Assembly (NCBI RefSeq): GCF_009914755.1
Contig: NC_060928.1
Reading direction: 5' to 3' (one strand)
Source of the DNA: the human T2T-CHM13v2.0 reference genome, Homo sapiens
DNA length: 64,000 nt
Part shown: positions 61,161 to 62,126 of the stretch, one piece after another
Layout: every line of letters begins with the position of its first letter
Numbering within the stretch: position 1 is the first letter of the stretch
Made by a program: the position numbers and the translations under genes
The notes under the pieces: model-generated
What the model was told of the DNA's origin: nothing
Database searches by the model: none
What the model saw: the letters and a program-made list of their open reading frames with translations, nothing else

Positions 61161-61354
61161 CAAAATGTGAGCCAGCATGTCGTCATGGAGGTGTCTGTGT
61201 TAGACCGAACAAGTGCCTCTGTAAAAAAGGATATCTTGGTCCTCAATGTGAACAAGTGGACAGAAACATCCGCAGAGTGACCAGGGCAGGTATTCTTGAT
61301 CAGATCATTGACATGACATCTTACTTGCTGGATCTAACAAGTTACATTGTATAG
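61161..61354 (+). CDS. HHIP: HHIP exon 13 coding part (194 nt), EGF-like domain 2 plus C-terminal hydrophobic helix: (A)KCEPACRHGGVCVRPNKCLCKKGYLGPQCEQVDRNIRRVTRAGILDQIIDMTSYLLDLTSYIV*
   Basis: tttttctctcccag| acceptor; TAG stop at 61352-61354; matches the HHIP C-terminus as I recall it. Confidence 0.97.
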
Positions 61355-62115
61355 TTTCTGGGACTGTTTGAATATTCTATTCCAATGGGCATTTATTTTT
61401 TATCCTGTCATTAAAAAAAAAAGACTGTTATCCTGCTACACACTCCTGTGATTTCATTCTCTTTTATTAATTTAAAAATAATTTCCAGAAATGTGCAGAT
61501 CCTCTGTGTGTATGTCAGCATGTTTGTTCACATATGCACATACACATACTCATAACCCCTATATGCGTTGTTGCATAACAGATGATTTTTTAAAATATAT
61601 ACTTCCTTATGCAAAGTAATTTACACAGAAATTCCATTGTAAATTGATAATGGATTTTTTATGTTACTAGAAGAGATTATTTGACTTCCCAGGAATTTTC
61701 TGTCTGTAATCACTAAAGTCAACTTTAATAGAGTTTTGAAACAGTACTGTGCAATCCGATGGATCTAATTAAAAAAAAGGCAATATTTTTATATTAAAGT
61801 ACTATACTAGGAGAGAATGTTTCAGAACTCCCTGATGAATTTCTAAGTGAGCAACTTGATATAAAATTGTAATCTTCATTTTTGTCAGTGTATCCAGTTA
61901 CAGAATGCTACACACTTACCTTTTTATTGGCTGAGAAATCTGGTTATTTCATCTTAATCTCAAGATTGTTTTCAAGTGTTTTATAATTAAATCATAATAG
62001 CATATTTTAAAATCAATCTTCCTAAAAGGTCTGCTTTTATTGTATATTTTATTTAACAATAGGCACTGGGTTTGTGTTACATATTTATATATTTTATTTT
62101 ATTTTTATAATATAG

Positions 62116-62126
62116 ACATCACCTAG
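62116..62126 (+). CDS. HHIP: Putative alternative terminal coding segment (G|AC ATC ACC TAG = Asp-Ile-Thr-stop), reached from an internal donor at 61289/61290
   Basis: U-rich, AG-free tract 62063-62113 ending in atatag|; in frame with the phase-1 donor GCAG|gtattc. Confidence 0.55.

What the first reader, a model, noticed from the sequence alone, without database searches (positions are those of the whole stretch)
61286..62126. Hidden 826-nt intron in the last exon could switch HHIP from membrane-tethered to a soluble ...VTRADIT* form
Seen: a donor-like GCAG|gtattc at 61289/61290 lies exactly between EGF2 and the hydrophobic tail, and it resembles the real exon 5 donor CAG|gtatca. In the 3' UTR a ~50-nt AG-free, U-rich tract ends in atatag| (62115), followed by ACATCACCTAG. 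Joining the two gives GCA G|AC ATC ACC TAG, a 682-aa protein lacking the last 21 residues (GILDQIIDMTSYLLDLTSYIV). The stop lies after the last junction, so NMD is not expected. Established: the C-terminal helix was described as HHIP's membrane-association element, and tail-deleted HHIP acts as a secreted Hedgehog antagonist. Inference: a splicing switch that tunes the range of Hedgehog inhibition. It may already exist as a predicted isoform, which I cannot check.
Basis: partly seen in the sequence, partly recalled or inferred. Interest (0 to 1): 0.8.

Follow-up and report, generated by a model that had tools for sequence, protein, structure and literature searches.

The report
Optional intron removing HHIP's tail helix
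The last exon of human HHIP holds an optional intron whose removal would give a Hedgehog inhibitor without its cell-surface-retaining tail; this exact protein is already annotated in a musk deer and a cobra, but its use in humans is untested.

Summary
The sequence facts are confirmed. CAG|GTATTC sits at 61289/61290. A 52-nt AG-free, T-rich tract ends in AG at 62114-62115. Joining 61289 to 62116 reads ...VTRA-DIT-stop, 682 aa, without the 21-residue helix.

Splice-site strength alone does not mark the pair out. By a crude matrix the donor ranks 3rd of 16 GT in the exon-13 coding part. The acceptor ranks 11th of 156 AG in the visible 3'UTR.

The support comes from other species. Among 123 HHIP proteins fetched, Moschus berezovskii "isoform X2" (682 aa) and a Naja naja fragment both end ...RRVTRADIT. 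A lizard model leaves the canonical sequence after the same "RA". So do ten shark models, where a Kunitz domain follows. The hidden donor therefore lies on an old exon border.

Human use is not shown. RefSeq lists one HHIP transcript, and I had no RNA-seq or vertebrate DNA. My ten library searches found no paper on such an HHIP isoform.

The "membrane tether" premise is dated. Holtz 2015 finds the helix amphipathic and full-length HHIP1 also secreted.

Verdict: a plausible conserved minor isoform, close to the engineered deltaC22 construct. A regulated "switch" is inference.

The parts
61161..61289 (+). Part of exon 13 kept in both forms: the second EGF repeat and the basic linker ...DRNIRRVTRA, plus the first base (G) of codon 680
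   Evidence: Translation. Pfam EGF_2 matches residues 2-29 of the exon-13 peptide. Exon bounds come from the hub's RefSeq table.
61287..61295 (+). Facultative donor CAG|GTATTC, with GT at 61290-61291. Six consecutive positions (-3 to +3) fit the consensus; +4 to +6 do not.
   Evidence: Same core as the real exon 5 donor CAG|GTATCA. Crude matrix score 0.1 bit, 3rd of 16 GT in the exon-13 coding part. +3 A and +4 T are fixed by the Gly-Ile codons (read from the sequence).
61290..62115 (+). The 826-nt optional intron. It is retained in the annotated mRNA.
   Evidence: GC is 28.6%, against 35.5% in the 3'UTR after it and 36.1% in intron 12.
61289..61354 (+). Codons 680-700 (GILDQIIDMTSYLLDLTSYIV) and the stop at 61352-61354. 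This segment is read only when the intron is retained.
   Evidence: 108 of 123 fetched HHIP proteins carry this helix. G680-I686 and S690-I699 are invariant or nearly so in a 30-sequence alignment. Hydrophobic residues sit at 3-4 spacing: I681, I685, M688, L692, L695, I699.
61355..62115 (+). 761 nt of proximal 3'UTR that the splice would also remove
   Evidence: Holds 5 ATTTA and 4 ATTAAA motifs and an A10 run at 61413-61422.
62063..62115 (+). Acceptor region: AG-free T/A-rich tract, yUnAy branch candidates (A at 62087 and 62096), AG at 62114-62115
   Evidence: Matrix score 2.6, 11th of 156 AG in the visible 3'UTR.
62116..62126 (+). Alternative coding end: AC ATC ACC TAG completes Asp-Ile-Thr-stop
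   Evidence: It is the only one of 156 3'UTR acceptors that yields DIT-stop. The same tail ends P0094 (Moschus X2) and P0089 (Naja naja).

Best explanation
Positions 61290-62115 are a real, evolutionarily old, facultative intron inside HHIP's annotated last exon.

Default state: the weak donor is ignored. The ribosome reads through it into 21 codons for an amphipathic helix with 3-4 hydrophobic spacing, and stops at 61352-61354.

Spliced state: codon 680 is completed from the 3'UTR, giving Asp-Ile-Thr-stop and a 682-aa protein.
- It keeps the cysteine-rich domain, the Hedgehog-binding propeller, both EGF repeats and the basic linker.
- It lacks the helix.
- The mRNA also loses 761 nt of AU-rich 3'UTR.

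Expected behaviour: like the engineered deltaC22 protein. It would still be an inhibitor and still bind heparan sulfate through its N-terminal domain. It would be held less well at the producing cell and so act further away.

Shown here: the sequence anatomy; annotated proteins with the same tail in a ruminant and a snake; use of the same exon border in a lizard model and in shark models.

Inferred: that human cells use the junction (probably as a minor form), that the choice is regulated, and the effect on signalling range.
For: 1. The anatomy is complete and in frame.
2. P0094, named by NCBI 'hedgehog-interacting protein isoform X2 [Moschus berezovskii]', has 682 aa. It is collinear with a canonical 700-aa HHIP (648 of 681 identical) up to ...RA, then ends DIT.
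3. P0089, a Naja naja fragment from a separate submitter annotation, ends ...RRVTRADIT. It aligns to Crotalus HHIP up to ...TRA.
4. A 3-residue tail across an intron of about 800 nt cannot be placed by protein alignment. Such models therefore need transcript evidence (inference).
5. In the human sequence only 1 of 156 3'UTR acceptors gives DIT-stop. The human AG at 62114-62115 is thus very likely the counterpart of the acceptor used in those models.
6. The donor position is shared. Lizard P0083 reads ...VTRA|ERPSH.... Ten elasmobranch models read ...RVARA|(A)VCQQ... followed by a Kunitz domain, PF00014, E 8.8e-17. Callorhinchus P0091 reads ...RAGIQTN..., which looks like read-through of a G|GTAT... 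donor.
7. The donor core equals that of the gene's constitutive exon 5 donor. The acceptor's pyrimidine count, AG-free zone and branch motifs fall within the range of the gene's nine real acceptors.
8. deltaC22 (A679-V700 removed) accumulates in COS-7 supernatants (Holtz 2015, passages).
Against: - Human RefSeq (RS_2025_08 on T2T) lists 1 of 1 HHIP transcript, so the NCBI pipeline did not call this junction in human (hub annotation).
- Only 2 of 123 fetched HHIP proteins carry the tail; 108 carry the helix.
- None of the human-identical fragments (P0001-P0004) ends in DIT, and all 15 short proteins have the helix.
- Site strength is ordinary: 311 of 3281 GT and 260 of 4207 AG in the window score as high. 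Three AG inside the proposed intron (61670, 61692, 61888) score higher than 62115.
- Automatic isoform models can record noise. Shark P0103 reads the Kunitz exon out of frame.
- I saw no RNA-seq and no non-human nucleotide sequence. Orthology of the acceptor is inferred from three amino acids and a stop.
- The helix is among the best conserved parts of the protein, so the helix-bearing form is clearly the main functional one.
Confidence: 0.5

Rival explanations
1. The junction is used, but only as low-level splicing noise without a role. The donor survives because Gly-Ile must be encoded (GGN ATH) at an old exon border. The acceptor region survives because the 3'UTR is constrained for other reasons. 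Annotation pipelines occasionally pick up the rare product.
For: - Human RefSeq has a single transcript (hub annotation).
- The tail is only three residues and has no recognisable feature.
- +1 G, +3 A and +4 T of the donor are forced by the nearly invariant G680-I681.
- Gnomon-type models include an evident noise isoform in sharks (P0103).
- 2 of 123 proteins have the tail.
Against: - The same junction product appears in two annotations made by different pipelines, in lineages that split at the base of amniotes.
- Asp-Ile-Thr-stop is kept in human, ruminant and snake, which neutral 3'UTR sequence would not do over that distance (inference).
- The cut falls one residue from the deltaC22 boundary, leaving all folded domains intact.
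Confidence: 0.33
2. In human the GT and AG are a chance pair in an AT-rich 3'UTR and are never joined. The resemblance to the musk deer and cobra models is irrelevant to human.
For: - About 1 in 10 GT and 1 in 16 AG in the window score as well.
- 41 of 156 3'UTR acceptors would give a tail of 5 aa or fewer from this donor.
- There is no human transcript model (hub annotation).
Against:
- All signals needed (GT, branch motifs, AG-free tract, AG) are intact in human.
- The donor core equals that of a constitutive donor of the same gene.
Confidence: 0.12

Closest known systems
NCBI model 'hedgehog-interacting protein isoform X2' of Moschus berezovskii (P0094), and the Naja naja HHIP fragment (P0089)
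   Same: Same point of departure after ...VTRA, same Asp-Ile-Thr tail, and the same 682-aa length as the human prediction.
   Different: They are automatic models in other species. No human model exists in the RefSeq table supplied. I could not see their nucleotide records or the evidence behind them.
Engineered HHIP1-deltaC22 (Chuang and McMahon 1999, as cited by Holtz 2015; Holtz 2015, PMC4460154)
   Same: Removes essentially the same segment (A679-V700 against G680-V700). It keeps every folded domain and accumulates in COS-7 medium.
   Different: It is a laboratory construct. The natural form would keep A679, add DIT, and also shorten the 3'UTR by 761 nt.
Exitrons (Marquez et al. 2015, PMC4484396; abstract read)
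   Same: An intron hidden inside an annotated coding exon, with retention as the default coding form. That paper's 'splicing memory' idea (imprints of former exon borders drive such splicing) fits the shark border.
   Different: The acceptor lies in the 3'UTR rather than in coding sequence. The event swaps the C-terminus instead of deleting an internal segment. 826 nt is not a multiple of three.
Elasmobranch HHIP with a C-terminal Kunitz domain (P0098-P0102, P0119-P0123)
   Same: Same exon border after ...R-A and the first base of the next codon.
   Different: There the border leads to a real domain-coding exon. I found no trace of that exon in 22.6 kb after the human stop (best E 0.17), nor on chr4 in a genome-wide search.
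Splice-derived soluble forms of surface receptors such as esRAGE or sFLT1 (recalled, not checked here)
   Same: The ligand-binding part is kept, the retaining tail is dropped, and the result is a decoy that can travel.
   Different: HHIP's tail is an amphipathic helix, not a proven membrane span, and the full-length protein can also be released (Holtz 2015).

Membership tests
Exitron (Marquez et al. 2015) | Both splice sites lie inside one annotated protein-coding exon | tested here: met
   61290 and 62115 both lie in exon 13, 61161-68608 (hub annotation).
Exitron (Marquez et al. 2015) | The spliced segment lies within coding sequence, so the product is internally deleted or frameshifted | tested here: not met
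   Only 65 nt are coding. The acceptor is 761 nt into the 3'UTR.
Exitron (Marquez et al. 2015) | Transcripts with the segment removed are observed | not testable with these tools
   No RNA-seq was available. There is indirect support from models in two other species. The paper's supplementary lists could not be read.
Stop-codon-spanning intron (coding sequence to 3'UTR) that escapes nonsense-mediated decay | Canonical GT...AG, with a branch motif and an AG-free pyrimidine-rich tract | tested here: met
Stop-codon-spanning intron (coding sequence to 3'UTR) that escapes nonsense-mediated decay | The new stop lies downstream of the last exon junction | tested here: met
   TAG at 62124-62126 lies 9 nt after the junction, and no annotated intron follows (hub annotation).
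Splice-derived soluble isoform of a cell-surface-associated protein | The ligand-binding domains are kept intact | tested here: met
   The cut is 13 residues after the last Cys of EGF2. P0094 is collinear with canonical HHIP to ...RA.
Splice-derived soluble isoform of a cell-surface-associated protein | The removed segment is the membrane anchor | tested here: inconclusive
   Literature only. deltaC22 is released from COS-7 cells, but the helix is amphipathic, full-length protein is secreted from NIH/3T3, and retention runs through heparan sulfate (Holtz 2015; Griffiths 2021).
Orthologue of the annotated ...VTRADIT HHIP isoform | Identical point of departure, tail and stop | tested here: met
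Orthologue of the annotated ...VTRADIT HHIP isoform | Orthologous acceptor at the nucleotide level | not testable with these tools
   No vertebrate genomic DNA other than the window's own assembly was available.

The most novel reading that the evidence does not exclude
The helix-coding stretch of HHIP is the exonised 5' end of an ancient intron.
- The jawed-vertebrate ancestor had an exon border after ...R-A. Sharks still use it constitutively, joined to a Kunitz exon.
- Bony vertebrates mostly read through it to make the helix.
- Amniotes kept a choice between 'read through' (helix: clustered, cell-bound inhibitor) and 'splice' (DIT: free inhibitor).
- The spliced form would be an endogenous source of the soluble HHIP reported in brain and serum, and a means of setting the range of Hedgehog inhibition.
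Probability: 0.2. Interest if true: 0.75.

Novelty: new member of a known kind. Interest (0 to 1): 0.55.

Why it matters
[quoted passage not shown] How one gene gives both cell-bound and soluble protein is still discussed in terms of cell type, heparan sulfate and proteolysis (Holtz 2015; COPD review PMC11134200).

In the passages and term counts I saw, none of these papers mentions splicing. 'Splice' and 'isoform' occur 0 times in Holtz 2015, Griffiths 2021 and Olsen 2004.

A natural transcript encoding a near-copy of deltaC22 would give a simple, testable source of soluble HHIP. It would also give a handle, the junction itself, for measuring it in lung, vessels, brain and cartilage. HHIP is discussed among COPD genes identified by genome-wide association studies.

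The shared border with shark Kunitz-HHIP also bears on how the C-terminus of this protein evolved.

Tried and rejected
- and the translations used the wrong reading frame. One search corrected this.
- Site strength as a discriminator: the matrix from recalled frequencies does not single out the pair. MaxEntScan and SpliceAI were not available.
- Human-like fragments with the DIT tail: none among the 103 proteins of 112-2000 aa or the 15 of 34-111 aa. The database is clustered at 90% identity, so a form differing only in its tail can be hidden inside a canonical cluster. This absence therefore weighs little.
- Relic of the shark Kunitz exon or of the lizard tail in human: tblastn against the window gave best E 0.36. 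Against the 3'UTR plus 20 kb downstream it gave best E 0.17. The whole-genome search with P0101 found Kunitz-region matches only at other loci; its last chr4 match ended at window 61288. That search used a stricter first look, so weak matches may be missed.
- Self-association of the helix: complex prediction with three copies of residues 661-700 of P0029 returned 'no answer' (score 0.06). This is not evidence either way.
- Literature.
  - searches returned 0 papers;
  - searches returned lists in which no listed title or abstract start concerned an HHIP isoform (listings only; the queries were too loose);
  - one search found Holtz 2015 and Griffiths 2021, one search found Olsen 2004, and one search listed ten papers that cite Coulombe 2004;
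  - (HHIP plus Kunitz) gave 6 papers, none with either term in title or abstract.
- Not readable: Kwong 2014 (PMC4163939) is not held. Coulombe 2004 and Chuang and McMahon 1999 were not read and are cited only through other papers' passages. The supplements of the exitron paper could not be read, so I cannot say whether HHIP is in its list.

Full report
**1. The observation**

Exon 13 of HHIP starts at 61161 and is read from 61163 as KCEPACRHGG...RRVTRAGILDQIIDMTSYLLDLTSYIV-stop. My first translations used the wrong frame.

The exon would end ...GCAG at 61289 and the intron would begin GTATTC. The site splits codon 680 after its first base. It lies 13 residues after the last cysteine of the second EGF repeat; the Pfam EGF_2 match covers residues 2-29 of the exon peptide.

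The acceptor AG is at 62114-62115. The nearest upstream AG ends at 62062, leaving a 52-nt AG-free tract with 29 T, 13 A, 5 G and 3 C in its last 50 nt.

The join gives ...VTRA-Asp-Ile-Thr-stop, 682 aa, with the stop at 62124-62126. The intron would be 826 nt. Every sequence statement of the finding is correct.

**2. Chance**

I had no MaxEntScan or SpliceAI. I scored sites with a simple position matrix whose frequencies I recalled from memory, so the numbers are only a ranking aid.

- The donor scores 0.1 bit. The eight real donors in the window score -1.3 to 6.9; exon 5 scores 0.0.
- 311 of 3281 GT in the window do as well. Within the exon-13 coding part the donor is 3rd of 16, behind AAT|GTGAGC at 61167 and GAG|GTGTCT at 61191.
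- The acceptor scores 2.6. The nine real acceptors score 0.1 to 8.3, and 260 of 4207 AG in the window do as well.
- In the visible 3'UTR the acceptor is 11th of 156. Three better-scoring AG lie inside the proposed intron.
- From this donor, 41 of 156 acceptors would give a tail of five residues or fewer.

On other counts the acceptor is ordinary for this gene. It has 14 of 20 pyrimidines (real acceptors 12-19), an AG-free zone of 51 nt by that script's count (real 22-75), and yUnAy motifs at -28 and -19.

The human sequence alone therefore permits the intron but does not argue for it.

**3. Evidence from other species**

I searched the exon-13 peptide against the large protein collection for longer proteins. 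This returned 103 HHIP relatives. Their C-termini sort as follows.

- 92 end in the canonical helix.
- One Tetraodon model has the helix followed by an extension.
- Two end ...RRVTRADIT. P0094 is named by NCBI 'hedgehog-interacting protein isoform X2 [Moschus berezovskii]' and has 682 aa. P0089 is a partial Naja naja protein.

P0094 is collinear with a canonical 700-aa HHIP, with 648 of 681 residues identical, up to ...RA. P0089 aligns to rattlesnake HHIP up to ...TRA.

A three-residue tail across an intron of this size cannot be placed by protein similarity, so both models should rest on transcripts; this is my inference. In the human 3'UTR only 1 of 156 acceptors yields DIT-stop. The human AG at 62114-62115 is therefore very probably the counterpart of the acceptor used there.

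**4. The donor sits on an old exon border**

- A lizard model (P0083, Hemicordylus capensis X1, 716 aa) reads ...VTRA and then an unrelated 37-residue tail.
- Five shark cluster representatives, and five more, read ...RVARA followed by V, AV or AAV. They then run CQQ... into a Kunitz/BPTI domain (PF00014 at 681-732 of P0101, 61.5 bits against a cut-off of 21).
- The one-, two- and three-residue variants look like neighbouring alternative acceptors.
- All 10 hits to that tail are elasmobranch HHIP (nine with NCBI species names; P0098 is an unnamed Logan cluster assigned by its tail); none is from a bony vertebrate.
- None of the seven cartilaginous-fish representatives has the helix.
- The chimaera model P0091 reads ...RAGIQTNILL..., as if translated through a G|GTAT... 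donor.

Across all 123 proteins fetched, 108 carry the helix, 10 the Kunitz tail, 2 the DIT tail and 3 something else.

The Gly-Ile that opens the helix is nearly invariant. It fixes +1 G, +3 A and +4 T of the donor, which explains why the site is weak yet durable.

This fits the 'splicing memory' idea of Marquez et al. 2015 (abstract). I cannot say which state is ancestral.

I found no relic of the Kunitz exon in the window (best E 0.36) or in the rest of the 3'UTR plus about 15 kb beyond it (best E 0.17). A whole-genome search found none on chr4 either. There the exon-13 match ends at window 61288, right at the border (which ran with a stricter first look).

**5. What the spliced form would do**

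Holtz et al. 2015 (PMC4460154, passages) define HHIP1-deltaC22 as lacking A679-V700. The natural form would lack G680-V700. They report the following.

- deltaC22 accumulates in COS-7 supernatants, whereas full-length protein is largely retained there.
- Full-length HHIP1 is secreted intact from NIH/3T3 cells.
- The helix is amphipathic and unlikely to span a membrane.
- Phospholipase treatment does not release the protein.
- Retention is ionic, through heparan sulfate bound mainly by the N-terminal domain.
- Deleting the last 30 residues lowers heparin affinity (elution at 450 instead of 550 mM NaCl), while mutating the four arginines does not.

Griffiths et al. 2021 (PMC8660895, passages) describe residues 671-700 as contributing to surface binding through a predicted zipper-type assembly. 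The sequence shows hydrophobic residues at 3-4 spacing: I681, I685, M688, L692, L695, I699.

The spliced form would keep the basic linker and all folded domains and lose only this helix. My reading is a shift in the balance between retained or clustered protein and free protein, not a switch from tethered to soluble.

The mRNA would also lose 761 nt of AU-rich 3'UTR, with 5 ATTTA and 4 ATTAAA motifs. That could change its stability or its 3' end choice; this is inference.

**6. What speaks against it**

- The RefSeq table supplied with the finding lists one HHIP transcript. A pipeline that called X2 in musk deer did not call it in human, so if the junction is used in human it is probably minor.
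- No human-identical fragment with the DIT tail turned up. Clustering at 90% identity could hide one.
- Automatic isoforms include noise; shark P0103 reads the Kunitz exon out of frame.
- I saw no RNA-seq and no non-human DNA.

**7. Literature and novelty**

I used all ten library searches.

- Three returned nothing: HHIP with exitron, Hhip with 'alternatively spliced' and 'secreted form', and HHIP with long-read and 'novel isoform'.
- The others gave no title or abstract start about an HHIP isoform (listings only).
- 'Splice' and 'isoform' occur 0 times in Holtz 2015, Griffiths 2021 and Olsen 2004.
- A 2024 COPD review states only that HHIP is on the surface or soluble, citing Coulombe 2004 and Kwong 2014. 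I could not read either paper.

So the isoform exists as a database model in other species. Within the library I could search, it is not discussed in print and it is not annotated in human.

I class it as a new member of a known kind: an intron hidden in a terminal exon that swaps the C-terminus. It fails the strict exitron definition because its acceptor is in the 3'UTR.

**8. Verdict**

- Observation: confirmed.
- Interpretation: partly supported.
- About 0.5 that this is a real, conserved alternative intron that human cells also use at some level, with the consequence described.
- About 0.33 that the junction is real but is functionless noise at a fossil exon border.
- About 0.12 that it is never used in human.
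- Interest 0.55. The claim is concrete and cheap to test, and it bears on an open point in Hedgehog biology. The human evidence is still missing.

Noticed in passing
P0098-P0102 and P0119-P0123 (proteins); border corresponds to window 61289/61290: Shark HHIP models carry a C-terminal Kunitz/BPTI domain (PF00014, E 8.8e-17 in P0101) in place of the helix, joined at the same codon position as the human hidden donor. All 10 hits to that tail are elasmobranch HHIP. One library search (HHIP plus Kunitz) listed no paper with either term in title or abstract.
   Followed up: partly
P0083 (Hemicordylus capensis HHIP isoform X1, 716 aa; cluster of 53 members): This lizard model leaves the canonical sequence after ...VTRA, the same border. 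It continues with an unrelated 37-residue Cys-rich tail (ERPSHTERREEQ...). No match to it was found in the human window or 20 kb downstream.
   Followed up: partly
P0091 (Callorhinchus milii, 652 aa): It ends ...RAGIQTNILLYFSASATWF, which looks like translation through the donor into the intron. No cartilaginous-fish representative has the canonical helix, so the helix may be confined to bony vertebrates.
   Followed up: no
P0103 (Heterodontus francisci isoform X4): Its tail appears to be the Kunitz exon read in another frame after a slightly different donor. I judged this by reasoning from the protein tails, not by a tool. It is an example of a probably non-functional automatic isoform and a caution for reading X-numbered models as biology.
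   Followed up: no
window 61164-61172: A better consensus donor, AAT|GTGAGC (matrix score 3.3), lies six bases inside exon 13, just after the real acceptor. It is apparently unused.
   Followed up: no
window 61355-62115: The proposed intron is more AT-rich (GC 28.6%) than the 3'UTR after it (35.5%). It holds ATTAAA at 61410, 61768, 61793 and 61986 and an A10 run at 61413-61422. These are possible proximal poly(A) sites or internal-priming sites that could confuse 3'-end data.
   Followed up: no
G000:C1:221.77 Mb and G000:C14:93.88 Mb: The shark HHIP query also hit two other human loci at 35-37% identity over the propeller region. I presume these are the HHIP-like paralogues (names recalled). 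I did not check whether they have a border at the equivalent position.
   Followed up: no
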